Shown here: in pieces, positions 1 to 34,860 of the stretch | Layout: each line of letters begins with the position of its first letter | Position numbering within the stretch: position 1 is the first letter of the stretch | Source of the DNA: a virus | Lineage: Duplodnaviria > Heunggongvirae > Uroviricota > Caudoviricetes | Direction: 5' to 3' (one strand) | IMG/VR virus record: IMGVR_UViG_2917403263_000004 | Span: 1-37,272 of that record | Length of the DNA: 37,272 bases | Notes under the pieces: model-generated | The model's database searches: none | What the model was told of the DNA's origin: nothing | What the model saw: the letters and a program-made list of their open reading frames with translations, nothing else | Translations under genes and position numbers: made by a program

Positions 1-144
1 TTACTGTCTACATTGTAAGAACGCCGCAAACTCCGCTCCCCAGAAGCTCATCCGTATCTCGCAGAGCGAACCCTGCAACATCCAGATGATGAGGATTGCC
101 GTCACGCATAGTGTGGTGATGGCGATTAGCGATTTTTGCGACAT
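1..144 (-). CDS. Hok/Gef-family type I toxin (small membrane peptide, 47 aa)
   Basis: Manual translation of minus strand 144..1: MSQKSLIAITTLCVTAILIIWMLQGSLCEIRMSFWGAEFAAFLQCRQ. N-terminal hydrophobic helix followed by SLCEIR...EFAAF, resembling the Hok/HokA/Gef signature. AAGGAG lies 8 nt upstream of the ATG. The stop codon is the first 3 nt of the window. Below the ORF-track length cutoff. Confidence 0.6.
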   Translation of the reverse strand: MSQKSLIAITTLCVTAILIIWMLQGSLCEIRMSFWGAEFAAFLQCRQ

Positions 145-974: not shown

Positions 975-2672
975 TCAGGCGATAAGGTCGCCGTATTTTT
1001 CACGCAGACTCGTGGCCTGTTGGGCATCTGCGGCAAGTTCGCCGCTGTTCATCGGTGCGCCAGTGTTGCTGTGGGTGTGGTTTGCTGTATGTGTGGCCAG
1101 CAATTGAATCAGGTCCAGAATATCAGTCAGCAACGTCAGCAGGTTAAGCCCGGACTTTTCCCGCGAGCCGCTGCGACCAATAAACACTGTCGGGGCGGTA
1201 AACTCCAGACCGCCGTCCGCCCTGCATGTTCTGCGGCCTCCCACGTTTTCAGTCAGGTCGTGCTCAATCGTTGACGTTGCGCCTTTAAGTTTAGTCAGCA
1301 AATCCTGCGCCACCATCTGGATGTGTTCGCCGGCTGCGATCGCGTAATTGCCGGTAGTAAGGTGTTCTGTCTGGCCTGTCATCAGCTTGCTGGTACCAAG
1401 AACACTGGTTATGTCGTTTGCCTGGACTGTTGTTGTTCTGGTTGTTGTTGTGCGTTCTTCCTGGTCGCTGTTAATGGTTCGCCTGGCAGAATGCTCCCTG
1501 ATTTGCTGGTCGGTTTCCCTGTGCCAGCTTCCGTCAGTCGTGACACGCTGAAACACTTCTGCGCGCTGTTGCTGCAACTGTTCGCCGGGCTTTACATCAG
1601 GCAGGTTATGTCCGGCAGGTAAGATTTGCCTGATGACAGGTTTATCCGGGCGGCCTTCAATACTGGATATTTCCACGATGGTGCCTGCCGGTGGGTAGGC
1701 AAAACATCCCGCCTCGCTACCAGCCATCGGGACAGGGAGCGGTACTGCCGGGTAAACAGGCGTATCGCTTTTGTCGTTGCCGTTCTCATCAAGCAGCTGC
1801 ACGTCCACGGCGTAGCGTGGGCGGAAACTGTCGGCTACATCGCCCAGGGTGGCGGATTCCGTTGGTGCGACGACCCGCGCCAGTCTGGTGTGTAGTGTAC
1901 CGCTGGCCAGTTCCGGAAACTGCGTTTCCATCTGTCTGCGCAATGGTGATTTGGAAACAGGGCTACCCGTGGCGGTGAGGCGCTCCCATGTCAGTGTCAT
2001 TTTCTCGTTGTTGAGGGCTACACGGGTAATACGCCCGGCCGGAAGATTCACACCCGGCCGCACGGTTTCCATGAACATGATGTCGATGCTGTTTCCGCCG
2101 CTTTGCCCGAGTGTGTACTGTTGCGGAATATCGGGCATGGTAATGCTGGCAAACCGTGAATCAGCTGCGTTTCCCACAAATACAGAACCGTCCGGCATGG
2201 GGTGCCAGACGTAATCGCTGATACTGAATGAGCGCCCCAGCTGGCTGAGTAACTGCGTCCCGCTGCCGCTGTGGGTGATGTAGGGAGTTGGTGTGCTGAC
2301 ATAATCCGCATCTGGCGTGATAAAAACGATACCGCTTTGTCGCCCCAGATTATCGAGCACATCCCGCAACGTCGGGTGTTGCATGGAGCAGGGGAAATCA
2401 AAATCCAGCACAGCAGCTGCTTCACGGATAAAAAGGCGACGTGAGCCATTTTCGGCCGGTTGATCGCGTTCTATGTAGCCAGAGAAATAGCGCCAGGCCT
2501 CACCATTACGGCCGAGATCGATTTGCACCATTGCGCCGGCAAGGCTTTTTTCTGGTGACAGATTGTTAACAGAAACGAAGCCGCGACCGGCAGCATTCAG
2601 GGTGAGAGCAAGGCTGATATCGGCAATTTCCACCTGTTCGCCATTGATCATGCAGCGTTGTATCAATTTCAT
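975..2672 (-). CDS. Putative baseplate hub protein (gpD / Mu gp44-like N-terminus with long C-terminal extension)
   Basis: 565 aa, last gene of the tail operon. ATGA start/stop overlap with the upstream gene. The N-terminal pattern (VQIDLGRNGEAWRYFSGYIERDQ ... QHPTLRDVLDNLGRQSGIVF) resembles the gpD/late-control-D family, recalled from memory. Weak assignment. Confidence 0.45.
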   Translation of the reverse strand: MKLIQRCMINGEQVEIADISLALTLNAAGRGFVSVNNLSPEKSLAGAMVQIDLGRNGEAWRYFSGYIERDQPAENGSRRLFIREAAAVLDFDFPCSMQHPTLRDVLDNLGRQSGIVFITPDADYVSTPTPYITHSGSGTQLLSQLGRSFSISDYVWHPMPDGSVFVGNAADSRFASITMPDIPQQYTLGQSGGNSIDIMFMETVRPGVNLPAGRITRVALNNEKMTLTWERLTATGSPVSKSPLRRQMETQFPELASGTLHTRLARVVAPTESATLGDVADSFRPRYAVDVQLLDENGNDKSDTPVYPAVPLPVPMAGSEAGCFAYPPAGTIVEISSIEGRPDKPVIRQILPAGHNLPDVKPGEQLQQQRAEVFQRVTTDGSWHRETDQQIREHSARRTINSDQEERTTTTRTTTVQANDITSVLGTSKLMTGQTEHLTTGNYAIAAGEHIQMVAQDLLTKLKGATSTIEHDLTENVGGRRTCRADGGLEFTAPTVFIGRSGSREKSGLNLLTLLTDILDLIQLLATHTANHTHSNTGAPMNSGELAADAQQATSLREKYGDLIA

Positions 2673-3244
2673 GTTTTCCCTTCCTCTTTCGCGCTTCCGA
2701 TGCCAACAGCATCCAGACCAGAGCCAACGGCATCATTGATTTTTTTCCAGAATGAACTTTGCGTATTCATGCCTTTGTCTGGCACCTGTTCGCTGCCGTT
2801 CTGTGTTTGCTGTTTTGCAATTGTTTTCTGTGAGCCGCTACGTGCAGATGCTTTCTCTGGTACGCTTAATTTTTCTCTGAGGGTAAAGGTGACCTGCCAG
2901 TGCATCTTGCCCTGTTGTTCCGTGGCATCGATGCCGCCGGAAAAAACACCCTGTCGCATATTAATCGCCTTAGCGGTAGCGTTGGCGATGCGGTATGTTT
3001 TTTTGGCCCCGTTACCTTCAGTTGCTTCGGCAAGCTGAAAAATACGGGTCAGAATGGCCTCATCGTTAAAATCAATGACACCTGACACGCGCAGTTCTTT
3101 TGCCTTGTTTCCCTGCTGAGCGCTTGTGGTGCTGGTTGACTGCCCGGACATGTCTTTATCCGGTAGTTGCATGGTGGCACTGACGGTGATGTTGCGCAGC
3201 AGAATGGCCTCTCCGTCAAGCGCAAGAACAATTATCTGGGTCAT
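2669..3244 (-). CDS. Tail-operon protein of unknown function (possibly gpU-like)
   Basis: 191 aa. Translationally coupled: ATGA overlap with the downstream gene and a 29-nt overlap with the upstream gene. Position between the fibre cassettes and the hub-like gene. No confident motif. Confidence 0.4.
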   Translation of the reverse strand: MTQIIVLALDGEAILLRNITVSATMQLPDKDMSGQSTSTTSAQQGNKAKELRVSGVIDFNDEAILTRIFQLAEATEGNGAKKTYRIANATAKAINMRQGVFSGGIDATEQQGKMHWQVTFTLREKLSVPEKASARSGSQKTIAKQQTQNGSEQVPDKGMNTQSSFWKKINDAVGSGLDAVGIGSAKEEGKT

Positions 3245-3929
3245 GTAGTGCTTCCCTTAGTGATGAGAGTTCATCGCCGACAAACAGCATCACGGCGGTA
3301 AAAACCCACTCCGGGTGTGGAATGTTTTTTTGTATCAGTGCCGCAGTCTGATTAAGTGTTCCCTTGTTGCAAAAACGCCACACCGGACAGAATTGTTGTC
3401 TGAGTGCTGTCTCTCGCCCGGCAATTTCCTGCAAAATTTTATCTCTCGCTTCCCTGAACTGATGAAGTGACGATGACAATGTTTCCGGTGATGTGGCTGC
3501 TGGGGTGGCTGCCTGCGCAATGGTTGCCGCCAGTGTCATGCCACGGGTTGTCTGTGTTGACAGCGTTATCGGCTCCGGAAGTGATGTTGCCGGCCTGGCG
3601 GGGAGTTGCATTCTGCTGATGGCCAGCGAAAGCTGGCTGGAGATCATGCGGGACATTCGCCCCACCTCCGGCAACGGAAATGCACCTGAAAATTGCCTGG
3701 CGAGTGATAAAAATTCGTCAGCGGACGGGGCGCAGAGTAACAGCGCCACAACGTCCTTTTCTGTGCTTTCTGTCAGGTACGGTAAAAGTGCGGATACCGC
3801 ATTGTCCGGACTGAGATAACGCCCGGATGGTGTAATGTTTCCCGTATTTTCTGACCACGGATGAAGGCAGACCACTGAACAGCTGATGTTCATGGCTGCC
3901 GGGCGCAGAATGGCCTTTTCCCATTTCAT
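3216..3929 (-). CDS. Hypothetical tail-operon protein
   Basis: 237 aa. ATG at 3929 overlaps the stop of the upstream tail-fibre assembly gene (ATGA). Low-complexity Ala/Thr/Pro/Ser-rich middle region. No recognisable family. Confidence 0.4.
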   Translation of the reverse strand: MKWEKAILRPAAMNISCSVVCLHPWSENTGNITPSGRYLSPDNAVSALLPYLTESTEKDVVALLLCAPSADEFLSLARQFSGAFPLPEVGRMSRMISSQLSLAISRMQLPARPATSLPEPITLSTQTTRGMTLAATIAQAATPAATSPETLSSSLHQFREARDKILQEIAGRETALRQQFCPVWRFCNKGTLNQTAALIQKNIPHPEWVFTAVMLFVGDELSSLREALHDPDNCSCA

Positions 3930-4498
3930 TCTGCCTTGCCCACCTGAAATGCGCGAATTTCTGCGAGATTATTCAGTTTAGTCAGTGTGTTTTTCATCTC
4001 CCGCTGGCGCAGATAAATCTCATTGTTGCGGGTAACCTGTGCCTGAACCATTGCCGTCAGCAGTTCGTCCAGTTGCTGCACGGAGAGTTTCACCTGGCGG
4101 TTGTTCGCGTCGTTCCATGTCATAACGCTTCGTGCCGTGTCAGATTTTGCCAGCATCACCACCGGAGACAATCTGTCCACTGAAACAGGGCCGGCATCCC
4201 AGATTCGCTTTTTCCATTCGAATGTGAACGACCGCGCTTCCTGTTCTGTGCGCCATGCTTCAATTTCCCGACGCTTGGCTGTTTTTGCTGCTTCCAGTAT
4301 TTCCGGTGTCACAGTGAACGGAGCTATCTCCCCCCATTTACCGCTTTGCAGTTCCTGCCAGATTTTCTGGCCTGTTGGCGCCGTATCATCTGCCGTCGCT
4401 GTATACGGCAGTGCTTCGCCCATTCCCTCGAGCAGTACGTCACAGTCAATTGCACCACTTTCGATATAACGGGCGTTTTCGATTTTTTTTATTTTCAT
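3926..4498 (-). CDS. Tail fibre assembly / chaperone protein (cassette 2)
   Basis: 190 aa immediately downstream of tail fibre 2. Size and position are typical of Tfa/gpG-type fibre chaperones. AGGTGAT RBS. Confidence 0.55.
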   Translation of the reverse strand: MKIKKIENARYIESGAIDCDVLLEGMGEALPYTATADDTAPTGQKIWQELQSGKWGEIAPFTVTPEILEAAKTAKRREIEAWRTEQEARSFTFEWKKRIWDAGPVSVDRLSPVVMLAKSDTARSVMTWNDANNRQVKLSVQQLDELLTAMVQAQVTRNNEIYLRQREMKNTLTKLNNLAEIRAFQVGKAE

Positions 4499-4548
4499 AA
4501 ATCACCTATGCTGTACGTATAAACAAACCAATCATGACACCGAACGTA

Positions 4549-6555
4549 TCAGCCGATCCCATCATGTCGCCAGACAATGCCCGGTACCGTTCCCGGCAAA
4601 CCTGCTCCTGAATCACGAAAATAAGCAGATACGTTGCCGTCGTATACGCCGGCCACGTTACTGGTGAAATGGCCCTTAAATTCAACCGCGCTAAGACGCG
4701 AGCCAGGGTAATAATAACCCCGCATTATCCGGCGATTCTGGTCTGAAGAGTCACTTCCTCTGTATGCGGCCAGCACCAGACTGCCTGTGCCGTACCAGGC
4801 GTCTGTGGCTCCCGGAGCAATGCCTGACAGAAGATCGATAACGTTCTGAGTGGTAAATTTCAGTGATTCCCAGCCGATGAGATAGCCATTTCCACTTGTC
4901 CAGTAGCGGTTGTGATAAATATTGCCGTTAATGCCATAGAAAGTAATGACCTTTACTGTATGACGCGGGTTCGGCACTCCATACTCTGACTCAACCCAGC
5001 GAATACGAACCATTCCTTTGAACAGCACGTCCGGTATAATTTTATTGCTGCCGTCAACAAGATATTCTCCCGGTTCTGCCTTCCTTACCCACGCAAGAAA
5101 ATCATTTTCTGAGTTAAACCTGATGACCTCGTCAGGGAGAAAGATATGACCAAAGCCGAACGCGCCAGGTATAGCCAGGCGGTCTGCCGTGCGGTCATGA
5201 ATGTCACCCTGCGGCTCCAGTGTGGCAGCTTTTCCAAGCTCAAGGATCGTGTGCATGTCTGCCAGTGTTTCCTGCATCAGCAGAGTGCGCGCCATTTCTG
5301 ACAGTGTGGAAAGCGAAGCATTCCCTTCCGTATCAAAGCACAATAATTTGTCTGCCCGCGCTTTCAAATTGCTGATGGCGGTTAACACGTCACTGAGAGG
5401 TTGCTTGCCTGCCAGCGCGTTGGTGACTGTTGTTGCAAAGTTCGGGTCATTGCCCAGCGCCGCCGCCAGTTCGTTCAGCGTGTCCAGGGCTTCGGGAGAT
5501 GAATCCACCAGTGCAGCGAGCAGTTTGCGGACAAACGCCGCATTTGCGATTTCTGTCCCCGTGGCATCATCAGGCGGTGTCGGGGTTTTCGGAGCGCCGG
5601 TAAAGACCGGACTGTACAGGGTGGCTCTGGCGTTGATTAACGTTAAGAAGTACGCCTCATTTGTCTTCAGGTTATCCCAGCCAGTCAGATAACCACCGCT
5701 GAGAGGCCAGTAACGGTTGTAATAAACATCTCCGTTAACGGTGTATAAAATAATGGCTTTTGCCATATGTTGCGGTTCTGGTGGATTGCGGTTCGCCTCC
5801 AGAAACCGGATATTAATTACACCACAGTAGCCACCGGGTAACACACCATTGGCCCCCTGTACAGAATACTCTCCGGGCGTTGCCTGCTTGACCCATGCTA
5901 GGAGGTCTTTTTCTGTATCAAACCGGATAAGCTCGCCTGGCAGAAACATGTGACCAAAACCAAATGCGCCCGGTATCGCCAGCCGGCCTTCCGTGCGGTC
6001 GTAAATATCACTCTGCGGCTCCATTGTGGCGGCATTTTTCAGTCCCAGATTATCACGGGATTCCTGTTGCGCCTCTTCACCTTCTGCCGCAATTTCTGAC
6101 AGGTGGTTAGCCGTTTTCAGCATTGTTTTCAGTTCCGGATAAATATCCATCTGCCAGCTCTGTGGGGGAACCGTGATTTGTGCAGCCTGAGCCATACCAC
6201 TGTAAGTGATTGCAAAATTACGAAGAAGAGTTTCCCCCACATGTTTGTGGTGAACAGGAGTTTTTATTACACCGCATAGCGTGCCACTTGCCTGGTGAAC
6301 AAGACAAATCCAGTCATAACTGAATTCGGCGTCTTCAGTGACTGCACCGCTACATACAATGCTGTTTGGGGTCAGTTGTCCGTAGGTGAGTTTGTTTACG
6401 GTATAAGTAATTTTTTCCGGTGGAATAATATTATCTTCCGGGCTGGGGTCGCGATTCATTAGTGCAAATACGATGGCATCCGGCCGGGCAGGTAAATTGC
6501 CGGCAATGCATTTTGCAATCCATTTTTCAAATGCTTTCGTTAATAATGCGCTCAT
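4549..6555 (-). CDS. Tail fibre protein 2 (receptor-binding fibre with internal tandem domain repeat)
   Basis: 668 aa. N-terminal about 150 aa homologous to the N-terminus of fibre 1 (PARPD..VFA, EF.Y.WI.L, G.LC motifs). Contains the classic fibre motif DTLNELAAALGNDPNFATTVTNALAGKQP. Two diverged copies of a domain of about 130 aa (aa 165-297 and 433-566). Confidence 0.7.
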   Translation of the reverse strand: MSALLTKAFEKWIAKCIAGNLPARPDAIVFALMNRDPSPEDNIIPPEKITYTVNKLTYGQLTPNSIVCSGAVTEDAEFSYDWICLVHQASGTLCGVIKTPVHHKHVGETLLRNFAITYSGMAQAAQITVPPQSWQMDIYPELKTMLKTANHLSEIAAEGEEAQQESRDNLGLKNAATMEPQSDIYDRTEGRLAIPGAFGFGHMFLPGELIRFDTEKDLLAWVKQATPGEYSVQGANGVLPGGYCGVINIRFLEANRNPPEPQHMAKAIILYTVNGDVYYNRYWPLSGGYLTGWDNLKTNEAYFLTLINARATLYSPVFTGAPKTPTPPDDATGTEIANAAFVRKLLAALVDSSPEALDTLNELAAALGNDPNFATTVTNALAGKQPLSDVLTAISNLKARADKLLCFDTEGNASLSTLSEMARTLLMQETLADMHTILELGKAATLEPQGDIHDRTADRLAIPGAFGFGHIFLPDEVIRFNSENDFLAWVRKAEPGEYLVDGSNKIIPDVLFKGMVRIRWVESEYGVPNPRHTVKVITFYGINGNIYHNRYWTSGNGYLIGWESLKFTTQNVIDLLSGIAPGATDAWYGTGSLVLAAYRGSDSSDQNRRIMRGYYYPGSRLSAVEFKGHFTSNVAGVYDGNVSAYFRDSGAGLPGTVPGIVWRHDGIG

Positions 6556-7112
6556 TATTCTTTATTCTCATTAATAGTTTGCGACAGCTCCGGCCACGCG
6601 ATCGCGGCATACGCTGTTTTATCCGTAATCAGGCTAAAATCCATCACCTGCAATTCCTTTGCGTAAATACGATATGCTCTCAGCTTTTCTTTATCTTCGT
6701 CGCTGATTAACCCCAGCAACAGGTCTTTTTCCCAGTCAGCAGTTAACCGGCTTACATCCTTGAGCTTCCTCACTCGCTCATCTTCTGCCTTTTTACCGTA
6801 ATCAAATATGAATTTACCATCCCGGTAAAACCAGTAACCCGATATATCAATTCGTCGGTTAGCTGTGTTATCTGTCACTTCAATCACGCTCCTGTTTCTG
6901 GGGTTAATTGACGCAACATCTTTGCCAACCCAGGTAACTTTTCCTGTATCCAGATATTCGACTTTTAATGTGTCAGGTGAAAAATCTTTCTGAATCTCAT
7001 ACCAGTTTTCACCAGATTCTGCATACAACCACTCGACGCCATATCTTTTAGTTAACTCATATTGTTCGGCTGTTTTCGGATTGCCCGACGTAATATTTTT
7101 TAAGTGCAACAT
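6555..7112 (-). CDS. Tail fibre assembly protein (cassette 1)
   Basis: 185 aa directly after fibre 1. C-terminal region (LRAYRIYAKELQVMDFS...AWPEL) resembles the conserved Tfa C-terminus. Its stop overlaps the fibre 2 start (TAATG). Confidence 0.6.
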   Translation of the reverse strand: MLHLKNITSGNPKTAEQYELTKRYGVEWLYAESGENWYEIQKDFSPDTLKVEYLDTGKVTWVGKDVASINPRNRSVIEVTDNTANRRIDISGYWFYRDGKFIFDYGKKAEDERVRKLKDVSRLTADWEKDLLLGLISDEDKEKLRAYRIYAKELQVMDFSLITDKTAYAAIAWPELSQTINENKE

Positions 7113-7114
7113 AA

Positions 7115-8773
7115 TTACATACTCGCTACGTTATACCAGGTTCCATTAATCAGTTTCTGAAGGGGGCGGATAAACCACCCGTCGGCAGAGTTATCCCAGT
7201 CTCCGTAGCAGTAGCCACCCACACTGACATAACCCGGGGGAGCCAGGTTTGAGCCTGTACTGCCCATCTGTTGATAACCGCCAAGACGCATATCCTGTAC
7301 TCCCATTTTATTTTGCAGGTAAGATGACAGCCATCCTCCCCATGTGCTGCCGTACACGTTACCGTCAGCCGCAAGCCTTGCAGAGCCGTTGCCTGACTGT
7401 AATTCACCTGTTGCGACACTATTTCCATGCACCAGTGAACCGCCACCGGTGGTCACTTTGTGTGACATGGCAATATCACCAGTCCGCAGGTTAATTGAGA
7501 AAGGACGCAGAGGGCCAATATTGCCATTTTCACCCTGTCCTTCCGTGGTGGGGATAAGATGAAGGCTGTCTTCTGAGCGACGAAAAATCAGACCAAAGGC
7601 GCCATCGAAAATCCTCAGCGCATTAACGTCACGAATTTTCAGTTCCCCGGTCATGGTATCGCCACCTCGCTGAACGGCGCCTTCTGCCTTATCAACGGTG
7701 GGCTTTAGTCCGACGTTTTCAATAAACAGTGGTTTGTCGGGGATGTCGCTGCCGTTGCGATTTTTCGCAAGGCGGGCATTTGCGTTATCCATTGCGATTT
7801 TTACCGCTTTTGACGTGGCGGCACGGTCTTCTGCATCACTGTCAGTGGCGTTACTGTACTGAGCGAATCCTTTTTCGTTCAGTGTGGCATCCGGGTGCCT
7901 GCGGGATTTTTCGTGTTCTGCCAGTGCATTGCTTTGTTCTTCGTCGGGTGTCTCCGGACGTAAATCCTGTGAGCCGTCTGCTGTCAGTTTTGCAAGCGGT
8001 GCAACAAAATGCCGAAAGCCATTCCCGTCTGTGTAGGATGCATGTTCCGGGCGGGCGCTGAATGTGAAAACCGTATTCCATTCGCCAGTAACAAATCCCT
8101 GCCAGCTTGCATCAATCCAGATGGTGTCCCCGACCGTTGCGCGCAGGCTGTAAGGTTCGCGCAGACTGACGCGCAAACCTCCCACATAACCAATCCCCGC
8201 GGCAACAATGGCGGTGCCGTTCTGATAGCTCACCTGAAAACCGTCCTCCAGAAAAGCGGCTTCACCGTAGTGATCAAACGCCAGCAGTCTGCGGGCTTCA
8301 TCCATTCCCGCCAGGCGGGCAGTGAAATCAATCTGCCAGACATCAGCACTGACATCGATATGCATCGCTGCTGCCGCACCGTCAAACTCCATGGAAAACG
8401 TGCGGATCAGATTGTTTCCCTGTACACCGTTCGCGGTTTTAATTTTTTGCTGGCAGGGGGTGTGCGCAATCATACAGAGCACGCCGCTTTCTTCGTTCAG
8501 CAGGCCAATCCAGTTGTATTCGAAGTCGCCGATTGTGGTATCCAGAATGATGGAAAATGCGGTTGCATTCGGTGACAGGAGACCGTACTGGGTGACCGGT
8601 GCGCGATACTGGATCAGGGTTTCATCAGGGAGCGTTTCGTCGCGGGGGATCTCTGCAGACTCATCCAGTCCCGGAATATATGCAAAAACAAATGTATCCG
8701 GGCGCGCAGGTTTCCCGCTGATGATCTGATTTGCGCACCAGTGTTCGTATTGTTCAGTAATAATCGTACTCAT
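7115..8773 (-). CDS. Tail fibre protein 1
   Basis: 552 aa. Contains AEHEKSRRHPDATLNEKGFAQYSNATDSDAEDRAATSKAVK, matching the conserved P2 gpH / T4 gp37-type fibre motif (AEHEQSRRHPDASLTAKGF...). ATGA overlap with the upstream baseplate gene. Confidence 0.75.
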   Translation of the reverse strand: MSTIITEQYEHWCANQIISGKPARPDTFVFAYIPGLDESAEIPRDETLPDETLIQYRAPVTQYGLLSPNATAFSIILDTTIGDFEYNWIGLLNEESGVLCMIAHTPCQQKIKTANGVQGNNLIRTFSMEFDGAAAAMHIDVSADVWQIDFTARLAGMDEARRLLAFDHYGEAAFLEDGFQVSYQNGTAIVAAGIGYVGGLRVSLREPYSLRATVGDTIWIDASWQGFVTGEWNTVFTFSARPEHASYTDGNGFRHFVAPLAKLTADGSQDLRPETPDEEQSNALAEHEKSRRHPDATLNEKGFAQYSNATDSDAEDRAATSKAVKIAMDNANARLAKNRNGSDIPDKPLFIENVGLKPTVDKAEGAVQRGGDTMTGELKIRDVNALRIFDGAFGLIFRRSEDSLHLIPTTEGQGENGNIGPLRPFSINLRTGDIAMSHKVTTGGGSLVHGNSVATGELQSGNGSARLAADGNVYGSTWGGWLSSYLQNKMGVQDMRLGGYQQMGSTGSNLAPPGYVSVGGYCYGDWDNSADGWFIRPLQKLINGTWYNVASM

Positions 8774-9405
8774 GCGTTATTTGCCTGTAATGTGTAATGC
8801 TCCACGGACAGGCCGTAATGTCCTGCCTGTAGTGAAGCGGTTAACCAGATGGTGTCCTTTCTCACCGTTGCTTCTGCTGTGTGGTACCGGTAGTGACCAT
8901 CAAACGTGCCGGCTGTCAGTCGGGCGGTGGTTGCATTGATCACCTGAAAGAAATAGCGCCTGCAGGTACGGCCATACTGGCGCACGAGCTGCATCATCAG
9001 CGCGTTGCTTTCACTCAGCTGGGTGTCATTAATGCGCAGTAAAATAACGTCCCAGTCATGTTGCAGTTGTCGCTCCAGTGTTTTAACGTCTCCCACGCCA
9101 AGACGTTTAAAGATGCGCTCGAAGCCGGCGCGTTCGCCTGAGTCCTGAGCGTTGATAAATGCGTGTTTTACCCTCAGGCGAAATAACGAAACCGGCTCCC
9201 CCTTAAATCGGGTGATGTTGCGCTGGTATGCCAGCAGGTTAAGTAAAGGCTCTGCGCAGGTGTCGACATCAATCTGCTGTAGTGGCCACGTCAGCCAGCT
9301 CCAGACCTTTTCCCAGTAGCGATGCGATGAATGTGCAAGCGTCAACGGCTCACCTTTATTCATCCAGGTGGGAAGTGGAAATTCGGGTATCTCCGGAAGT
9401 TTCAC
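8770..9405 (-). CDS. Baseplate protein (P2 gpI / Mu gp48-like, tail-fibre attachment)
   Basis: The track ORF (8770..9555) overlaps the J-like gene by 150 nt. The likely start is GTG at 9405, preceded by GGAGGTG and overlapping the J-like stop (GTGA). An alternative ATG lies at 9363. Position between the J-like and fibre genes as in P2/Mu. Confidence 0.5.
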   Translation of the reverse strand: MKLPEIPEFPLPTWMNKGEPLTLAHSSHRYWEKVWSWLTWPLQQIDVDTCAEPLLNLLAYQRNITRFKGEPVSLFRLRVKHAFINAQDSGERAGFERIFKRLGVGDVKTLERQLQHDWDVILLRINDTQLSESNALMMQLVRQYGRTCRRYFFQVINATTARLTAGTFDGHYRYHTAEATVRKDTIWLTASLQAGHYGLSVEHYTLQANNA

Positions 9406-10589
9406 GCGCCCACCTCCACAGCAAGCGATTCCAGACGGGGAACGGCCAGATCGCTGAGAATATCCGGAAGGGAAAACGTAACCGACTCCACCTGTGGAAA
9501 GACCTGGTGGATCTCTTCGCCCAGTCTGGACATGCTGAAACGGCTGTACGGCCATGTTTTCTGAACGTCATAATCGCTGTTTTCGCGAAATGCACAGCGA
9601 ACCAGATTTTCCACATTGTGCAATAGTGTCTGAATCTCCTCATCGCTGAGGTTCAGCGTTGCATACAACCAGAGTGTCACGGTCAGGGTGTGGCGTGTTT
9701 CAGGCATGGAAAAACAGCGCAGATCGTCACCGTGTCCGTGATGACCTTCATCGTTAATGAATGCGTTTACTGCATCAACGAACGGTTCGGATGCGATGCC
9801 GGTATCCAGCAGAATGTAAGCATTCGCTGTGCCGGGGCCGCGTGGTGCATCATGCAGAAAATAGATGCGGTCGGCACTGATGCCGGCAACACCGGCAATT
9901 AATCCACGGTAAACAGCATCGGTGTGATAAGCGCCGGCAAGATTAAACTGATTGCGCACACGATCACGCAGCTCGTCGTCGCTTTCTTCGTTGGCCCCCG
10001 GCGAGGTCAGCCAGTTTTCATCGTTCTCAACGCCGGCAATGCCGTCAATTGCCACCGGAAGGATGCGGTAATACCCCGGTGCGAGGTTAAAGCCGGCCCC
10101 GGCCTGTTCCGCAGAAACATCGATGTTCATGCTGAGTGTTCCTGCCGGAATAACCGTATCCCTGACAACGGTCAGCGTATAAATCACGCCGTTAATACGC
10201 TCTGTCTGGATCTGTGTACCTGCCGGCACAGTAACTGTGCGATCAATATCGTCTTTTGTGAAACGAATAACGCCGGATGCGTGCGTGGCGGCCTTGCGCT
10301 GCAGGTTCACTGCCCAGGCAAAAACATCAACGAATACACCACTGGCATCGGCCAGAAACAGGTTTTTCATCACCACATTAACCAGCGCGTCTTTCAGCCA
10401 CATCACGGGCTTTGAGGTGATGGCTGTAATCAGTCGCCAGAACGGCGACATGCGGGATGTGTTGGTGATAAGCCCTTCGTTTTTAACGATGGCTTCAAAT
10501 TCAGCGCGTACCTGTTCTTCGGTTACCGGCATGCCGTTATCAGCCAGAATGCGCTCGTAATCTGCGGTGGGTTTACCGTTAATCATCAA
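9402..10589 (-). CDS. Baseplate J-like protein (P2 gpJ / Mu gp47 family)
   Basis: 395 aa. Size, position and overall sequence character are consistent with the Baseplate_J family. Flanked by W-like and I-like genes. Confidence 0.7.
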   Translation of the reverse strand: MMINGKPTADYERILADNGMPVTEEQVRAEFEAIVKNEGLITNTSRMSPFWRLITAITSKPVMWLKDALVNVVMKNLFLADASGVFVDVFAWAVNLQRKAATHASGVIRFTKDDIDRTVTVPAGTQIQTERINGVIYTLTVVRDTVIPAGTLSMNIDVSAEQAGAGFNLAPGYYRILPVAIDGIAGVENDENWLTSPGANEESDDELRDRVRNQFNLAGAYHTDAVYRGLIAGVAGISADRIYFLHDAPRGPGTANAYILLDTGIASEPFVDAVNAFINDEGHHGHGDDLRCFSMPETRHTLTVTLWLYATLNLSDEEIQTLLHNVENLVRCAFRENSDYDVQKTWPYSRFSMSRLGEEIHQVFPQVESVTFSLPDILSDLAVPRLESLAVEVGA

Positions 10590-10929
10590 GGGATACCGTA
10601 AAAGTCAGGGGTTCAAAAAAATCTTCTGTATGGGCGTTAATCAGCAGGCGACCGGAAAGAGGTGATTCCTCCGTTACACTGACGGTGCCCGGCGTGATGC
10701 GTTCATCATCCTCAATCAACAGTGTCATCTGCATCATGATGTCGGCGCGAAGTGTCTGGCTTTTTTCTGCCAGCAGACGTGTGGCCAGTCCGCTTTCAAT
10801 GATGGCGTGCTGGCAGTCCTGGGCGATACTTTCCCTGTTGTTGCACAGCACTGGTTCGGCGGCGCTGTTCAGCGTGAAGTTGCGACCGGTGATGAGCAAA
10901 TCGATGTAAAGAGGCTGGTCAGTAAGCAT
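10579..10929 (-). CDS. Baseplate wedge protein (gpW / gp25-like)
   Basis: Start taken at internal ATG 10929 (GGAG RBS; 11-nt overlap with the tape measure stop) rather than the track start 11067. About 116 aa, with a C-terminal pattern resembling P2 gpW. Confidence 0.5.
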   Translation of the reverse strand: MLTDQPLYIDLLITGRNFTLNSAAEPVLCNNRESIAQDCQHAIIESGLATRLLAEKSQTLRADIMMQMTLLIEDDERITPGTVSVTEESPLSGRLLINAHTEDFFEPLTFTVSLDD

Positions 10930-13015
10930 GTAGCTCCATCCATTCGTTAAGACGGGCAGGGGATGCGTCCTGCACGTTGACATTGACCACGCGGCGGGAG
11001 TTGTCGATTGTGGTCTGGTTTTCGCTGTTGTTCCGCATCTCTGCCGCAATGCCGCCCGGTCCTGCACTGATGGCTTTTCCGCCGGTTAATACGGAGCCTT
11101 CGCCGCTCCCTGCGCTTTCTGGCGTGTCGATGTTAACGCCGGGGATCATGTTGAGTTTGTCCACAATCCAGCCCCATGAATCACTGAAGGACTGTTTCAC
11201 CAGCTCCCAGAGGTTGCTGAAAATCTTCAGTATGCCGCCGGCGATATTCTTCAGGGCGTCCAGTGGTGAATGCGTGGAAAAATAGTTAACCAGTGCATTC
11301 CAGCCATCCCGGATTGCGCCCCATGCCTTGTCGAAGCATGTCCCCATACTGCCAACCATTCCCGCCACCCACTGAAAGGCGGCGGTGTCCATCAGTGCGG
11401 CCTTGATTTCATCCCAGCGGGTGATCAGGAAATAAATGCCCACACCCAGCGCAGCCAGTGCCAGGATGATTAACGTAATTGGGCTGAAAAGTAGTTGAGT
11501 GGCAACAGCTGCACCGCTGGTAACGGCGGTATAAATTTTCATGGCCACCGCAGTGGCCCCCAGAGCAATGGAGTAAAGCCAGAGTCCGGCACGCTGTAGT
11601 TTCAGCAGCGCCAGCTGAATTTTTGCTTTGATGTTGTATGTTCCCATTACAAGGGTCATGGCCAGATACAGCGCCCTGACCGTTCGGGCGACGGCACAGA
11701 ATGCCCACATGGTGGCAGTCAGCATGCGTTTCAGCAGAATAAGGATTTTCAGAGGCGCAGTAGCTGCCAGCCAGACCAGCCGGAGCCCGGTCCAGACAAA
11801 CTTTGCTGCGCCCACCACAATGTTTGTCACGGCCCCCACGGCAGCAATGCCCAGCAGTGCACCGGTCAACAGGCCAATGGCGCGGGTGATATTGGGGTAC
11901 AGGCGTAACCAGGCAACAAAGGATTTACCGCCTTCGTTGCTTTTCTGGATGAACGGGTACAGAACGGGCAACAGCTGTGTGCCGATTTCAATACGAATGC
12001 CGTTAATAATTGCGGCGGCCTGTTCCCACGGGTCGGCCATGGCCTGCGCCATTTCGACAGCCTTATCCATGCCTTTGATATTGCCCAGCGTGGCGATATT
12101 CTTTTCCAGTCCGCCAATGTCTGCATTGAGCAATTTAATCATGGCCACGGCCTCATCAGAGCCAAATGCGCTTTTCAGCAAATCGGAGTCAGCCACTTTT
12201 GACAGATCACCAAATTTGCCTCTGATAAGTTTCATGATCTCGACAACACTTTTCATCGTGCCGTCTTTATTCACGAAATTAAGCCCCAGCTTTTTCTGGG
12301 CGCTGCCTACAGCGGCCAGAAATGATTTGTACTTTGTCCCGGCCTCACTGCCGCTCATGGTAGCCTGCAACTGCCCCAGCACGGCGAACTGTTCAGCCGC
12401 ATCAATACCGGCTGCTTTTGCACTGGCACCCAGCGTGGTGAACGCTGCCGACATGTTATCGCCGGTTGTTTTAAACATCTGCACGGCGGTGGCGGTTTGT
12501 CCGGCAACCTGCTCAACCCATTTGCTTTTTCCCATGGCATCAGCCTGGTCTTTAAAAATGCCGTACATGGTGCCCATGTAGGCGGTAATTGTCTGGCTGC
12601 TGGATTTGGTTGCCGCAGCCACTGTTGCTGATGCGGTGGTGAAACGGGAGAGTTCATCGTCAGTTAATCCGGCGATGGCTGACTGGATATCATAAGAAGC
12701 ACGTACAAAATCCTGCGCCGCGCCGCCGTATTCCATAGTGAAATCAACGGCGGCCCGACTGAGTTTACGCAACCCGGATTCCGCGACGCCCAGTGACTTC
12801 ACCTCACCGAGCGCCCGGTCCATTTCAATAGCCGGCATCAGTGCGCCTTTCACGGCGGCACCCACGCCCCAGAGTGCAGCGCCACCGGTGGCGATATTGC
12901 GGAAGGCTCCCCGGCTTGTTGCGGCGAATCCCTGAACCTGTCGGCCCGCCGCACGTAACGGTCTTGTCAGGCGGTCTGTCAGTTCAAGAAGTAATTCAAG
13001 ACGCTGCTGTGACAT
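10919..13015 (-). CDS. Tail tape measure protein
   Basis: 698 aa, Ala/Gly-rich with long predicted helices and a central hydrophobic block (LLTGALLGIAAVGAVTNIVVGAAKFVWTGL...). Lies immediately downstream of the frameshifted chaperone pair. Confidence 0.8.
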   Translation of the reverse strand: MSQQRLELLLELTDRLTRPLRAAGRQVQGFAATSRGAFRNIATGGAALWGVGAAVKGALMPAIEMDRALGEVKSLGVAESGLRKLSRAAVDFTMEYGGAAQDFVRASYDIQSAIAGLTDDELSRFTTASATVAAATKSSSQTITAYMGTMYGIFKDQADAMGKSKWVEQVAGQTATAVQMFKTTGDNMSAAFTTLGASAKAAGIDAAEQFAVLGQLQATMSGSEAGTKYKSFLAAVGSAQKKLGLNFVNKDGTMKSVVEIMKLIRGKFGDLSKVADSDLLKSAFGSDEAVAMIKLLNADIGGLEKNIATLGNIKGMDKAVEMAQAMADPWEQAAAIINGIRIEIGTQLLPVLYPFIQKSNEGGKSFVAWLRLYPNITRAIGLLTGALLGIAAVGAVTNIVVGAAKFVWTGLRLVWLAATAPLKILILLKRMLTATMWAFCAVARTVRALYLAMTLVMGTYNIKAKIQLALLKLQRAGLWLYSIALGATAVAMKIYTAVTSGAAVATQLLFSPITLIILALAALGVGIYFLITRWDEIKAALMDTAAFQWVAGMVGSMGTCFDKAWGAIRDGWNALVNYFSTHSPLDALKNIAGGILKIFSNLWELVKQSFSDSWGWIVDKLNMIPGVNIDTPESAGSGEGSVLTGGKAISAGPGGIAAEMRNNSENQTTIDNSRRVVNVNVQDASPARLNEWMELHAY

Positions 13016-23773: not shown

Positions 23774-23820
23774 CCCGGAACGGGCGCACAAAGAATTTGC
23801 GCACCCGTTCCGGGTTTTCT
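23774..23820 (+). terminator. Rho-independent terminator after the Q-ogr unit
   Basis: Roughly 13-bp stem CCCGGAACGGGCGC...GCGCACCCGTTCCGGG followed by TTTTCTT. The convergent Rrf2-like gene stop overlaps the T-run. Confidence 0.55.
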
Positions 23821-24176
23821 TATTCAATGGCAGACAACTGATAATTTGTGTCTTCCTGCAGGCTGGTTAAAGAAATATTATCCAGTGCAGCCAGAATAAC
23901 GTGCTGTGTATATAATCCGGAACATTTCATTGCCCGGACAATATCACCAACACTGTAATTTTCTTTTGTCGGGATATATCCACCACCCGGGCCGCGTGTG
24001 GCTTTTACCAGGCTACTTTCCCGTAAATATCTGAATATTTGCTCCAGATATGACAGTGAAACGGTTTCTTTGCTTAATTGCCGGAGTGAGATTGGCTTTC
24101 CGGTGTACTGTTTCACAAATTTAATCATTACCATAACTGCAACTGATGCACGCTGGCTTCCGGAATTATCTTTCAT
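23820..24176 (-). CDS. Rrf2-family winged-helix transcriptional regulator (short form without Fe-S cysteine cluster)
   Basis: Contains SLSYLEQIFRYLRESSLVKATRGPGGGY, the Rrf2 (IscR/NsrR-like) signature. Start set at ATG 24176 (GGAAG RBS), giving 118 aa. Confidence 0.55.
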   Translation of the reverse strand: MKDNSGSQRASVAVMVMIKFVKQYTGKPISLRQLSKETVSLSYLEQIFRYLRESSLVKATRGPGGGYIPTKENYSVGDIVRAMKCSGLYTQHVILAALDNISLTSLQEDTNYQLSAIE

Positions 24177-24190
24177 CGTGATTACTTCCA

Positions 24191-24466
24191 TTAATGGCAT
24201 AAATTGATGGAGTGGGTCAGTGAATAAAGAGGCATTACATTCCATCCCTTAGAGCGCCAGCTGTCTGCAACATCTTTACTCCTTGTTATTGCTGGTATTC
24301 CGATGCCGTTATTTACATGCATCCATGCCACTGGCTCTGCTTCCAGTGATGCAAGTGCGATTAACATATTGTGATCGTCTTCATCAAGACCGAACGGGAT
24401 GTCTTCGCGCCACGATTTAAACTTTGTGATTTTACGTTGTAGCCATTCTTTGGTAATGGTGGACAT
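24191..24466 (-). CDS. Hypothetical protein (91 aa)
   Basis: ORF in an operon-like array with 3-12 nt spacing. No recognisable motif. Confidence 0.4.
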   Translation of the reverse strand: MSTITKEWLQRKITKFKSWREDIPFGLDEDDHNMLIALASLEAEPVAWMHVNNGIGIPAITRSKDVADSWRSKGWNVMPLYSLTHSINLCH

Positions 24467-25319: not shown

Positions 25320-25631
25320 TTATTCGGGGAATAACGCCCTGATATTTCCGGCCATCTGACTGGTTATCTGTGCGGTTGGCACTGGCTGTGACACGGGGCG
25401 TTCTGTCCTGGTTTGTGTCACGGATAACGCCTCATCGTCAGCCCATGCAGCCAGTCGGTAAGCCTCTGCTGGATTCATTTTCAGAAGTGCCAGCCCGGCC
25501 AGAAAAGCCACGCGTTGGCCGCTTTTGCGGGCTTCTGGTGTAAGGCTGTCCAGCCAGGCGCATGCTTCGCTTTCGTTCTTGACGGCCGCAGGCTTCAGAT
25601 AGAAACTTATCCGTCTGGTTGGTGTCGTCAT
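25320..25631 (-). CDS. parR: ParR-like centromere-binding adaptor protein
   Basis: 103 aa from ATG 25631 (AAGGAG RBS, 4 nt after the parM stop). RRISFYLKPAAV...GQRVAFLAGLALL...NIRALFP parallels R1 ParR (RRTIAFKLNPDV...NRAALTAGLALY...ILRSLFP, recalled from memory). Confidence 0.6.
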   Translation of the reverse strand: MTTPTRRISFYLKPAAVKNESEACAWLDSLTPEARKSGQRVAFLAGLALLKMNPAEAYRLAAWADDEALSVTQTRTERPVSQPVPTAQITSQMAGNIRALFPE

Positions 25632-25635
25632 TGGT

Positions 25636-26595
25636 TTACTCCTTGTCCATTGCGTACAGCCCATTAACCAGAGCAAACTGTGGCACCCCATCCGCGATGA
25701 AAGTCGCATTAACTCCGCAGGCTTCGCGGATAGCGGGTGCCACAATCTCCGCCCCGCCACCGACAACCATCACCCGCCCGTAACCCGAAAAACCCGCCAG
25801 CGCGCGGATCACGCGTTGTTTCAGTGTTTCCTCCTTTTCACGAATAACCGCCATCAGGCTGCCGTAATGCGCGTCATTGTGGATGTGCTGGCGCAGCCAG
25901 GCTTCATCATGGCGATGTTCGATAATGGTATTGGCGATGTGGTGACTGGTGCGCATACCGTTAGTGGCCATCACCGACAGTACGGCATCGGCCATCAGAG
26001 AAACGCCTACGTGTGGATCGCAAAACACCTGGCTGATACCTGCCAGTTGCCCCTGAACCTTTGCCACATCCAGCGTGGTTCCGCCCAAATCCACAATCAG
26101 CAGGGATTCAAACGGACTCATGTCAGCCAGTGCCTTAAAGCCAGCCGGAATGGATTCAGGCATAACCCGTACGTTACGGATAGTGAATGCTTCGCTGTTC
26201 TGGTACTCCACCGGGCGCATGACGTTCGCTTTTTTGCGGTTGATGTTGGCCATGTCCGGCTGTGCGTTTGTATCGAAATACTCGCTCAGTGGCAGGGTGA
26301 CAACCACATCCACTTCCTGTGGTGGGATGCCTGATTTGACCAGCGCGTGATGAATGGCAATGACATTCACATCACTGTACTGATATTGCGTGTCGGTCGT
26401 CTGGACAAAGCGATCGCTGACCGAATCAAAACCATAGCGCACACCATCAAGCATGTAGTTCGCGGGCTGCGTGCCACCGAACGGCGCAGACCATTCCGAC
26501 TTGAAGCTGTTCGGGCTGATGGCGTTGCGGCGTTCGCCGTTCTCAGTCCATGCCAGCTTGATGTTGGTGGAGCCGTCGTCGATACAAATTTTCAT
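25636..26595 (-). CDS. parM: ParM/StbA-family actin-like plasmid segregation ATPase
   Basis: 319 aa. N-terminus MKICIDDGSTNIKLAW...ISPNSFKSEW...QYSDVNVIAIHHALVKSGIP closely parallels R1 ParM (MLVFIDDGSTNIKLQW...ISPNSFKREW...[20 protein letters not shown], recalled from memory). Confidence 0.85.
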   Translation of the reverse strand: MKICIDDGSTNIKLAWTENGERRNAISPNSFKSEWSAPFGGTQPANYMLDGVRYGFDSVSDRFVQTTDTQYQYSDVNVIAIHHALVKSGIPPQEVDVVVTLPLSEYFDTNAQPDMANINRKKANVMRPVEYQNSEAFTIRNVRVMPESIPAGFKALADMSPFESLLIVDLGGTTLDVAKVQGQLAGISQVFCDPHVGVSLMADAVLSVMATNGMRTSHHIANTIIEHRHDEAWLRQHIHNDAHYGSLMAVIREKEETLKQRVIRALAGFSGYGRVMVVGGGAEIVAPAIREACGVNATFIADGVPQFALVNGLYAMDKE

Positions 26596-30235: not shown

Positions 30236-30321
30236 ACACCCGTTTTATGAGGTGCAGCGGAAATGTAACCTGACTGATTGCGGCATGGCAAGCGGTTTTT
30301 TTGTGTGTGCATGATGATTAC

Positions 30322-34791: not shown

Positions 34792-34860
34792 CTTTACACA
34801 TTGAGCGGATTACATCTCGCAAGGAGTATTTAGTTAATTTATCCGTTGGATGGGCTAATC

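What the first reader, a model, noticed from the sequence alone, without database searches (positions are those of the whole stretch)
3926..8773. Two complete tail-fibre plus chaperone cassettes in tandem on the same strand
Fibre 1 (552 aa) with its Tfa and fibre 2 (668 aa) with its own chaperone follow each other directly. The two fibres share a homologous N-terminal (baseplate-attachment) domain of about 150 aa but have unrelated distal regions. There is no invertase and no inverted arrangement, so this is not a Mu G-segment or Pin-type switch. Both fibres appear to be full-length genes with their own starts, which would give a virion two receptor specificities, or provide a substrate for recombination between the N-terminal repeats.
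Basis: seen in the sequence. Interest (0 to 1): 0.7.

Follow-up and report, generated by a model that had tools for sequence, protein, structure and literature searches.

The report
Two-fibre tail module in HP1-like prophage
An HP1-like prophage of a cryptic Escherichia species carries two tail-fibre genes in tandem, each with its own chaperone, a layout conserved in its whole prophage clade but not found in the sequenced phage isolates searched; in this copy the second fibre and two other essential genes are frameshifted.

Summary
On the minus strand the order is gpJ, gpI, fibre 1 (7115-8773), Tfa (6555-7112), fibre 2 (4549-6555), DUF4376 protein (3926-4498), then HP1 orf33/34/35 homologues.

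- **Shared anchor.** Both fibres start with the PF12571/DUF3751 anchor domain (36% identity over 157 aa, E 2e-23). Their distal parts are unrelated. Fibre 1 has a Mu S-like tip. Fibre 2 has a repeated shaft-plus-knob distal part also found in PF08400-type prophage fibres.
- **No switch.** There is no invertase, no inverted repeat, and no DNA similarity between the two anchors.
- **Conserved layout.** All close relatives long enough to judge (IMG/VR, about 1% of complete E. coli genomes, E. albertii, Y. kristensenii) have both fibres. Every more distant relative and every isolate examined (HP2, Yersinia 324, Salmonella SW3, ESSI2-like) has one.
- **Second anchor.** It is under purifying selection (dN/dS 0.11).
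- **This copy is damaged.** One extra base at 4587-4588 frameshifts fibre 2 and removes its conserved last 26 residues. The integrase and replication gene A are also frameshifted.

Verdict: a conserved, apparently undescribed two-fibre variant of a known tail module. Dual receptor recognition is plausible but untested. Moderate interest.

The parts
9402..10589 (-). Baseplate J-like wedge protein
   Evidence: PF04865, E 1.5e-31. 95-97% identical in most close relatives (91% in L027).
8770..9405 (-). gpI-like wedge protein (211 aa). It carries a roughly 30-aa C-terminal extension seen only in the dual-fibre clade.
   Evidence: Tail_P2_I match. In the alignment, the extension ATVRKDTIWLTASLQAGHYGLSVEHYTLQANNA is present in the Escherichia and Yersinia dual-fibre loci and absent from all single-fibre relatives.
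7115..8773 (-). Fibre 1 (552 aa): DUF3751 anchor, shaft, and a Mu S-like tip
   Evidence: PF12571 E 1e-28 and Phage_fiber_2. Matches PDB 5YVQ, Mu tail fibre protein S, E 5.7e-42. Its anchor groups with the single fibre of HP1-like relatives.
6555..7112 (-). Tail-fibre assembly protein for fibre 1 (185 aa)
   Evidence: Caudo_TAP E 5.5e-20. phrog_136, tail fiber assembly protein, E 5e-51.
6106..6555 (-). Fibre 2 anchor domain (residues 1-150), a divergent paralogue of the DUF3751 anchor
   Evidence: PF12571, 29.9 bits. 36% identical to the fibre 1 anchor. dN/dS 0.11 with no stop codons in 17 loci. Forms a separate clade with two lineage-specific deletions.
5623..6105 (-). Fibre 2 knob module A (residues 151-311)
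   Evidence: 48% identical to module B, E 6e-54. AlphaFold pLDDT is 80-90 over residues 205-295.
5305..5622 (-). Fibre 2 shaft segment (residues 312-417) with the LVDSSPEALDTLNELAAALG motif
   Evidence: Matches PDB 9d93 'tail collar fibers gp4', E 5e-11. Repeated together with the knob module in homologous fibres.
4816..5304 (-). Fibre 2 knob module B (residues 418-580)
4549..4815 (-). Fibre 2 tip as it reads in this sequence (residues 581-668 plus stop). The last 12 codons are out of frame.
4587..4588 (-). Single-base insertion (GG instead of G) that frameshifts fibre 2
   Evidence: DNA alignment with L041: AACGGTACC against AAC-GTACC.
4506..4586 (-). Displaced coding sequence for the conserved fibre 2 C-terminus (YRALSG...IGLFIRTA*)
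   Evidence: It lies within the small ORF 4506-4685. It matches the C-termini of the seven homologues printed, and removing the extra base restores a 682-aa ORF that ends with it.
3926..4498 (-). DUF4376 protein (190 aa), the presumed chaperone of fibre 2
   Evidence: PF14301 E 1.4e-13. phrog_1141 E 2e-80. The same family follows homologous fibre tips in L001, L002, L033, L038, L039 and L041. DUF4376 proteins are required fibre chaperones in Alteromonas phage V22 and Campylobacter CJIE1 (PMC10579305, PMC7882524).
3216..3929 (-). HP1 orf33-like protein
   Evidence: Synteny with HP2 orf33. phrog_1677.
2669..3244 (-). HP1 ORF34 baseplate-complex protein
   Evidence: PF25759 E 1e-53.
975..2672 (-). 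HP1 orf35-like baseplate protein (565 aa)
   Evidence: phrog_2258, baseplate protein, E 2e-232.

Best explanation
This is the host-recognition end of the late tail operon of an HP1-like (Peduoviridae) prophage. The host is Escherichia sp. E3659 and the prophage lies between serS and dmsA.

The prophage lineage carries two fibre slots instead of one.
- **Slot 1 is the ancestral HP1 fibre.** It has a DUF3751 anchor and a Mu S-like tip, and is folded by a Caudo_TAP protein.
- **Slot 2 has its own diverged DUF3751 anchor.** Interchangeable distal parts are grafted onto it. Here the distal part is a shaft-knob-shaft-knob-tip unit shared with PF08400-type prophage fibres, together with its DUF4376 chaperone.

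All these genes are co-oriented and three of the five junctions overlap or lie within 2 nt, so both fibres would be made together. I infer that both trimers dock on the gpJ/gpI wedge through their anchors. Intact relatives would then carry two receptor-binding specificities, either side by side or as a mixture competing for six sites.

Shown: the anatomy, the homologies, conservation across the clade, and selection on both anchors. Inferred: co-assembly on the virion and a broadened host range.

In this particular copy fibre 2 has lost its conserved C-terminus to a frameshift. The integrase and gene A are also frameshifted, so this prophage is probably defective.
For: **Anatomy and domains:**

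**HP1 synteny:** TMP, DUF2590, J, I, fibre, tfa, orf33, orf34, orf35 match HP2, Yersinia phage 324, SW3 and ESSI2_ev040, each of which has one fibre.

**Dual layout in close relatives:**
- Every IMG/VR relative with gpI at 88% identity or more that extends far enough has both fibres. The four loci with gpI at 54-78% have one.
- In 5,426 complete E. coli genomes, gpI plus the fibre 1 anchor is found in 43 and the fibre 2 anchor in 48.
- The layout also occurs in E. albertii, Y. kristensenii and a metagenome contig.

**Selection:** dN/dS is 0.04 for anchor 1 and 0.11 for anchor 2, with no stop codons.

**Origin of anchor 2:** it forms one clade with shared deletions.

**Slot 2 is polymorphic:** 1-3 knob modules plus DUF4376; 350-842 aa proteins with no chaperone gene; or a 285-aa adaptor plus a 352-aa ORF.

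**The distal cassette moves between lineages:** the same distal part plus DUF4376 sits after gpD in P2-like prophages, under a different N-terminal domain.

**Operon structure:** no strong internal promoter or terminator.

**Relatives can be intact:** integrase, replication endonuclease and ogr are annotated as intact in E. coli ETEC1716.
Against: - No expression, proteomic or microscopy data exist for any member.
- None of the 50,697 deposited phage records has the second anchor type, so no isolate demonstrates a two-fibre particle.
- There is no extra adaptor gene relative to single-fibre relatives. Simple myovirus baseplates offer one fibre-attachment element per wedge, as in E217 (PMC10329688). 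Simultaneous display of both fibres is therefore not assured.
- Anchor 2 varies by 25-30% among loci whose baseplate proteins are about 97% identical.
- Fibre 2 is frameshifted here and in Y. kristensenii, so it can be lost.
- The full-length fibre 2 model was poor (mean pLDDT 54.6; anchor about 35).
Confidence: 0.7

Rival explanations
1. The two fibres use the same six docking sites and compete for them. A lysate would then contain particles with mixed or alternative fibre sets (bet-hedging), rather than every particle carrying twelve fibres.
For: Both fibres carry the same anchor fold. There is no additional adaptor gene relative to single-fibre relatives. In E217 there is one fibre-attachment element per wedge.
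Against: The anchors are only 36% identical and differ by two indels, which suggests different contacts. gpI has a clade-specific C-terminal extension that could provide a second site.
Confidence: 0.3
2. Fibre 2 does not dock on the baseplate. It attaches to fibre 1 or to another tail protein such as orf33, giving a branched fibre as in some multi-RBP phages.
For: Anchor 2 is much more variable than the baseplate proteins. Adaptor-plus-RBP variants of slot 2 exist: a 285-aa protein followed by a 352-aa ORF in E. albertii.
Against: The DUF3751 domain is described as the tail/baseplate anchor in R2 pyocin and P2 H (PMC7882524). No interaction data point elsewhere.
Confidence: 0.12
3. The second cassette is a passenger left by recombination and is not used by the phage.
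For: Fibre 2 is frameshifted in this window and in Y. kristensenii. PGAP annotates it as pseudogene fragments in E. coli A2.
Against: The E. coli A2 ORF is in fact intact at 681 aa. Anchor 2 has dN/dS 0.11 with no stops in 17 loci. It is present in essentially every clade member. Its start is coupled to the Tfa stop.
Confidence: 0.08
4. The paired anchor sequences serve as a substrate for homologous recombination that deletes or swaps cassettes.
For: They are direct repeats at the protein level.
Against: blastn and the repeat search find no nucleotide similarity between them. No single-fibre deletion derivative was seen among close relatives.
Confidence: 0.03

Closest known systems
Haemophilus phage HP1/HP2 tail module (orf27-orf35) and the HP1-like isolates Yersinia vB_YenM_324, Salmonella SW3/SI7 and Escherichia ESSI2_ev040
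   Same: Same gene order: TMP, DUF2590, J, I, fibre, tfa, orf33, ORF34, orf35. The fibre 1 anchor is 40-49% identical to theirs.
   Different: They have a single fibre and chaperone. The window clade inserts a second fibre with a divergent anchor plus a DUF4376 chaperone, and its gpI is longer at the C-terminus.
Phage Mu S/U and S'/U' (G segment) and Pin/Cin-type invertible fibre switches
   Same: The fibre 1 tip is homologous to Mu S (5YVQ, E 5.7e-42) and its chaperone is Tfa-like. Both systems encode two alternative specificities in one phage.
   Different: There is no invertase, no inverted repeats, and no shared constant exon. The two genes are complete, tandem and co-oriented, so they would be co-expressed rather than switched.
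Phages with two independent receptor-binding proteins (T4 long and short fibres; Wifcevirus and Gordonclarkvirinae in the BASEL collection, PMC11990801)
   Same: Two different fibres are encoded by one myovirus genome. One is more conserved and the other highly variable.
   Different: Those phages use different adaptors or positions and unrelated N-termini. Here the two anchors are paralogues of one domain in a minimal P2/HP1-type baseplate.
PF08400-type prophage tail fibres (annotated 'prophage tail fiber N-terminal domain-containing protein' or 'shikimate transporter') followed by a DUF4376 protein
   Same: The fibre 2 distal part (about residues 150-668) is 47-71% identical to them, with the same shaft-plus-knob repeats and the same C-terminal motif. 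The same chaperone family follows.
   Different: Their N-terminus is PF08400, not PF12571. In the two contexts examined they sit after gpD of P2-like prophages.
DUF4376 tail-fibre chaperones of Alteromonas phage V22/A5 and the Campylobacter CJIE1 H-fibre
   Same: A DUF4376 protein is encoded directly downstream of the fibre it serves.
   Different: Function is inferred here from family and position only. Sequence similarity is limited to the domain.
DUF3751 tail fibres of R-type tailocins (a/b/c types, Ghequire et al. 2015, PMC4684702)
   Same: A conserved anchor of about 150 aa with freely exchanged distal parts, including short anchor-only forms. This resembles the 285-aa slot 2 variant.
   Different: In the passages read, that work describes fibre types per cluster, not a conserved pair of paralogous anchors in one phage.

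Membership tests
P2/HP1-type tail fibre with PF12571 (DUF3751) anchor | N-terminal PF12571 domain above Pfam's gathering score | tested here: met
   Fibre 1 scores 100.3 bits and fibre 2 scores 29.9 bits, against a cut-off of 23.
P2/HP1-type tail fibre with PF12571 (DUF3751) anchor | Gene lies in the baseplate/fibre block downstream of gpJ and gpI, followed by its own chaperone | tested here: met
   Fibre 1 is directly after gpI. Fibre 2 is directly after the fibre 1 chaperone. Each is followed by a chaperone-family gene.
P2/HP1-type tail fibre with PF12571 (DUF3751) anchor | Intact C-terminal tip | tested here: not met
   This applies to fibre 2 only. A one-base insertion at 4587-4588 removes the conserved last 26 residues. 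Fibre 1 aligns with its homologues to the end.
P2/HP1-type tail fibre with PF12571 (DUF3751) anchor | Trimeric fibre incorporated into the virion and binding a host receptor | not testable with these tools
   Needs proteomics, microscopy and adsorption assays.
HP1-like Peduoviridae tail module | Synteny TMP, DUF2590, J, I, fibre, tfa, orf33, ORF34, orf35, with a P2-type head module | tested here: met
HP1-like Peduoviridae tail module | One fibre plus one chaperone between gpI and orf33 | tested here: not met
   There are two fibres and two chaperones here and in the whole close clade.
Invertible fibre switch (Mu G segment / Pin, Cin, Gin) | Serine invertase gene adjacent to the fibre genes | tested here: not met
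   No resolvase/invertase family appears among the Pfam hits of the ORFs tested across the window.
Invertible fibre switch (Mu G segment / Pin, Cin, Gin) | Inverted repeats flanking oppositely oriented alternative fibre and chaperone genes | tested here: not met
   All genes are on one strand. The longest inverted repeats are 14-29 nt at 70-94% complementarity and lie at irrelevant positions.
Caudo_TAP tail-fibre assembly protein | PF02413 domain, encoded immediately after the fibre | tested here: met
   ORF 6555-7112, E 5.5e-20.
DUF4376 tail-fibre chaperone | PF14301 domain, encoded immediately after the fibre, and travelling together with the fibre tip | tested here: met
   E 1.4e-13. Found downstream of homologous tips in six other loci.
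DUF4376 tail-fibre chaperone | Required for folding or function of the fibre | not testable with these tools
   Shown only for V22 and CJIE1 in the literature.
PF08400-type prophage side tail fibre | N-terminal PF08400 domain | tested here: not met
   Fibre 2 has PF12571 instead. Only its distal part is shared with this family.

The most novel reading that the evidence does not exclude
The clade has turned a minimal HP1/P2-type baseplate into a two-fibre machine. On this reading the clade-specific 30-residue C-terminal extension of gpI is a second docking peptide, recognised by the diverged anchor of fibre 2. Each of the six wedges would then carry both fibres (twelve per virion). Slot 2 would serve as a plug-in position for distal cassettes that are also used by P2-like prophages.
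Probability: 0.25. Interest if true: 0.55.

Novelty: new variant of a known kind. Interest (0 to 1): 0.35.

Why it matters
[quoted passage not shown] What differs here is how a small P2/HP1-type tail could gain a second fibre without any visible new adaptor gene: through a paralogue of the anchor domain itself.

The clade offers a natural comparison. Single-fibre and dual-fibre relatives share about 70-80% identical baseplate proteins. That makes it possible to ask how fibre docking specificity is encoded, whether fibre sets compete or coexist, and how distal cassettes move between HP1-like and P2-like prophages.

This is also practically relevant to retargeting tailocins and phages through DUF3751 fusions.

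Finally, it shows that automatic annotation hides these genes. They are labelled 'shikimate transporter' or called as pseudogenes when the ORF is intact.

Tried and rejected
- **Full-length AlphaFold model of fibre 2.** Mean pLDDT was 54.6 and the anchor was about 35. Foldseek against PDB gave no hit at E <= 0.001. I did not use it beyond noting that the two knob modules fold confidently.
- **Sequence search of PDB with the DUF4376 protein.** Nothing significant.
- **Scan of one genome per species for anchor 2.** Only E. albertii was found. The scan needs exact peptide words, so this is not a measure of absence.
- **Second homologue search with the anchor alone.** Only 12 short hits.
- **Possible second PF12571 site in ESSI2_ev239.** The tail module has a single fibre.
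- **Search for att direct repeats between the window ends.** No match of 12 nt or more.
- **Literature searches** for dual fibres in Peduoviridae, HP1-like E. coli prophages, and P2-like prophages with side tail fibres. No description of this arrangement was found.
- **Y. kristensenii split fibre 2 as a genuine two-gene design.** Rejected. The two parts are joined by a frameshift within a continuous homologous reading.
- **A recent duplication of the anchor.** Rejected, based on the tree and the shared indels.
Full report
**What is in the sequence.** All genes of the region lie on the minus strand. Read 5' to 3' on that strand, the order is:
- tape measure protein (10919-13015)
- DUF2590 protein
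- baseplate J (9402-10589)
- gpI-like protein (8770-9405)
- fibre 1 (7115-8773, 552 aa)
- a Caudo_TAP assembly protein (6555-7112)
- fibre 2 (4549-6555, 668 aa as it reads)
- a DUF4376 protein (3926-4498)
- homologues of HP1 orf33, ORF34 and orf35 (3216-3929, 2669-3244, 975-2672).

The rest of the window has a P2-type head module, lysis genes, gene A, cox, a repressor and an integrase. It is bounded by serS on one side. dmsABC lies beyond the other end in the source contig, which is from Escherichia sp. E3659. So this is an HP1-like Peduoviridae prophage.

**Checking the observation.** Both fibres carry the PF12571/DUF3751 N-terminal domain above Pfam's threshold (100.3 and 29.9 bits). Their first 157 and 145 residues align at 36% identity, E 2e-23, and nothing else in the two proteins is similar. 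The two downstream proteins are unrelated to each other.

Gene junctions are tight. gpI and fibre 1 overlap as ATGA. Fibre 1 and Tfa are 2 nt apart. Tfa and fibre 2 overlap as TAATG. The scan found no convincing internal promoter or terminator.

No ORF tested across the window matches a resolvase/invertase family. There are no long inverted repeats. The only sizeable DNA repeat is internal to fibre 2.

**The flaw in 'two complete cassettes'.** The seven homologues checked all end with a conserved motif (...PGxYRALSG...IGLF[I/V]R..). The window protein ends instead with VPGIVWRHDGIG. The conserved ending is still present, out of frame, at 4506-4586.

A DNA alignment with a 94%-identical metagenomic relative, which has the same two-fibre layout, shows one extra G at 4587-4588. 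Removing it gives a 682-aa protein that stops 8 nt before the DUF4376 start.

The integrase (34846-35854, in a G7 run) and replication gene A (26847-29326, in an A5 run) are also split by single-base frameshifts. Both are annotated as intact in the E. coli ETEC1716 relative. This copy is therefore probably a decaying prophage. Assembly error cannot be excluded, although no frameshift was noticed in the flanking host genes.

**What the two fibres are.**
- *Fibre 1.* Beyond its anchor it has a P2/Mu-type fibre repeat and a tip homologous to Mu tail fibre protein S (PDB 5YVQ, E 5.7e-42). Its partner is a Tfa-family protein.
- *Fibre 2.* Beyond its anchor it consists of knob module A, a shaft segment, knob module B and a tip. 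The two modules are 48% identical (E 6e-54).
- *Relatives of fibre 2.* The whole distal part is 47-71% identical to a very large set of 'prophage tail fiber N-terminal domain' (PF08400) proteins, which have two or three such shaft-plus-knob units. In the two contexts I examined, those proteins sit after gpD at the end of P2-like prophages. There too a DUF4376 protein follows.
- *Chaperone precedent.* DUF4376 proteins are experimentally required fibre chaperones in Alteromonas phage V22 and for the Campylobacter CJIE1 H-fibre (PMC10579305, PMC7882524).

**Comparison with relatives.**
- *Isolates.* HP2, Yersinia vB_YenM_324, Salmonella SW3 and Escherichia ESSI2_ev040 and ev239 all have one fibre and one chaperone between gpI and orf33.
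- *Deposited phage records.* None of the 50,697 records contains the fibre 2 anchor type; the best match is 32% identity.
- *IMG/VR.* Every locus with gpI at 88% identity or more that reaches far enough has both fibres. The four loci with gpI at 54-78% have one.
- *Complete E. coli genomes.* Of 5,426 genomes, gpI plus anchor 1 is found in 43 and anchor 2 in 48. The dual layout is therefore the rule in a clade present in about 1% of strains.
- *Other species.* It also occurs in E. albertii and Y. kristensenii.

**Evolution of the anchors.** In a tree of anchors, anchor 1 groups with the single fibres of HP1-like phages, with a single-fibre locus as sister to the dual clade. Anchor 2 from Escherichia and Yersinia forms its own clade with two shared deletions. 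The second slot was therefore gained once and is old.

Both anchors are under purifying selection: dN/dS is 0.04 for anchor 1 and 0.11 for anchor 2, with no stop codons in 17 loci. Anchor 2 evolves about five times faster at the protein level.

**Slot 2 is a plug-in position.** Behind the constant anchor, I found three kinds of content:
- one to three knob modules with a DUF4376 chaperone
- proteins of 350-842 aa with no separate chaperone gene
- a 285-aa adaptor followed by an unrelated 352-aa ORF (E. albertii).

In Y. kristensenii fibre 2 is split by a frameshift. In E. coli A2, PGAP annotates it as two pseudogene fragments, one called 'shikimate transporter', although the ORF is intact at 681 aa.

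**How it most likely works.** The genes are co-oriented and tightly spaced, and the fibre 2 start overlaps the Tfa stop. Both fibres and both chaperones should therefore be made from the same late transcript.

The DUF3751 domain is described as the element that anchors P2 H and the R2 pyocin fibre to the tail (PMC7882524). In the simple myovirus E217, one trimeric fibre N-terminus grips an attachment loop of the wedge protein encoded just upstream (PMC10329688).

I therefore infer that both fibres dock on the gpJ/gpI wedge, giving intact relatives two receptor specificities. Whether they coexist on each wedge or compete for six sites is open.

One observation bears on this. gpI of all dual-fibre loci has a conserved C-terminal extension of about 30 residues. 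It is absent from every single-fibre relative, including the closest ones. It could be a second docking element. However, the correlation rests on a single evolutionary event.

**The recombination idea is not supported.** The two anchors share no detectable nucleotide similarity, and no deletion derivative was seen among close relatives.

**Novelty and score.** Multi-RBP phages, fibre mosaicism and both chaperone families are established knowledge. Literature searches found no description of a conserved pair of paralogous DUF3751-anchored fibres in an HP1/P2-type phage, and no isolate in the phage collection has it.

I rate it a new variant of a known kind, of moderate interest (0.35). This particular copy is damaged, which lowers the value of the window itself but not of the clade.

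Noticed in passing
window 34846-35854 (+): The integrase is split into two overlapping ORFs by a single-base frameshift in a G7 run near 35393-35399. The E. coli relative has an intact 329-aa integrase.
   Followed up: partly
window 26847-29326 (-): Replication gene A (PF05840) is split into 409-aa and 404-aa ORFs by a frameshift in an A5 run near 28095. The relative has one 941-aa replication endonuclease.
   Followed up: partly
window 25320-26595 (-): A plasmid-type partition pair (ParM/StbA actin-like ATPase plus a Plasmid_stab_B protein) lies inside the prophage, next to an Rrf2-family regulator (23820-24245). The set is conserved in the E. coli ETEC1716 relative.
   Followed up: no
window 30057-30144 (-) and 30180-30255 (-): Rfam matches above gathering score to C4 antisense RNA (82 bits) and to the isrK Hfq-binding sRNA (58 bits). 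They are adjacent to each other in the early region.
   Followed up: no
window 8770-8870 (-), the C-terminus of gpI: A conserved extension of about 30 residues (ATVRKDTIWLTASLQAGHYGLSVEHYTLQANNA) is present only in dual-fibre loci and absent from all single-fibre relatives.
   Followed up: partly
L038 6001-8791 (Citrobacter freundii) and L039 6001-9691 (E. coli): P2-like prophages carry a PF08400-anchored fibre (739 or 1034 aa) plus a DUF4376 protein directly after gpD, in addition to their gpH/gpG set. This is a second route to a two-fibre Peduoviridae prophage, and to judge from the homologue list it may be very common in E. coli.
   Followed up: partly
L001 7500-9560 (E. coli A2) and many hits: RefSeq annotation labels these fibres 'shikimate transporter' and splits an intact 681-aa fibre 2 ORF into two 'incomplete' pseudogenes.
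   Followed up: yes
L033 9001-10721 (Yersinia kristensenii): Fibre 2 is split into 200-aa and 340-aa ORFs by a frameshift. It is followed by DUF4376. The same 200-aa product is on record in three contigs.
   Followed up: yes
L037 10001-11941 (Escherichia albertii); also L012 and L017: A slot 2 variant: a 285-aa protein (anchor, short shaft, PxTxNR-like repeats) followed by an unrelated 352-aa ORF, with no DUF4376 gene. Possibly an adaptor plus a separate receptor-binding protein.
   Followed up: no
window 1-144 (-): A hok/gef-type small toxin gene lies just outside the last tail gene, as called in the source contig. A hok gene occupies the same position in the Y. kristensenii prophage.
   Followed up: no
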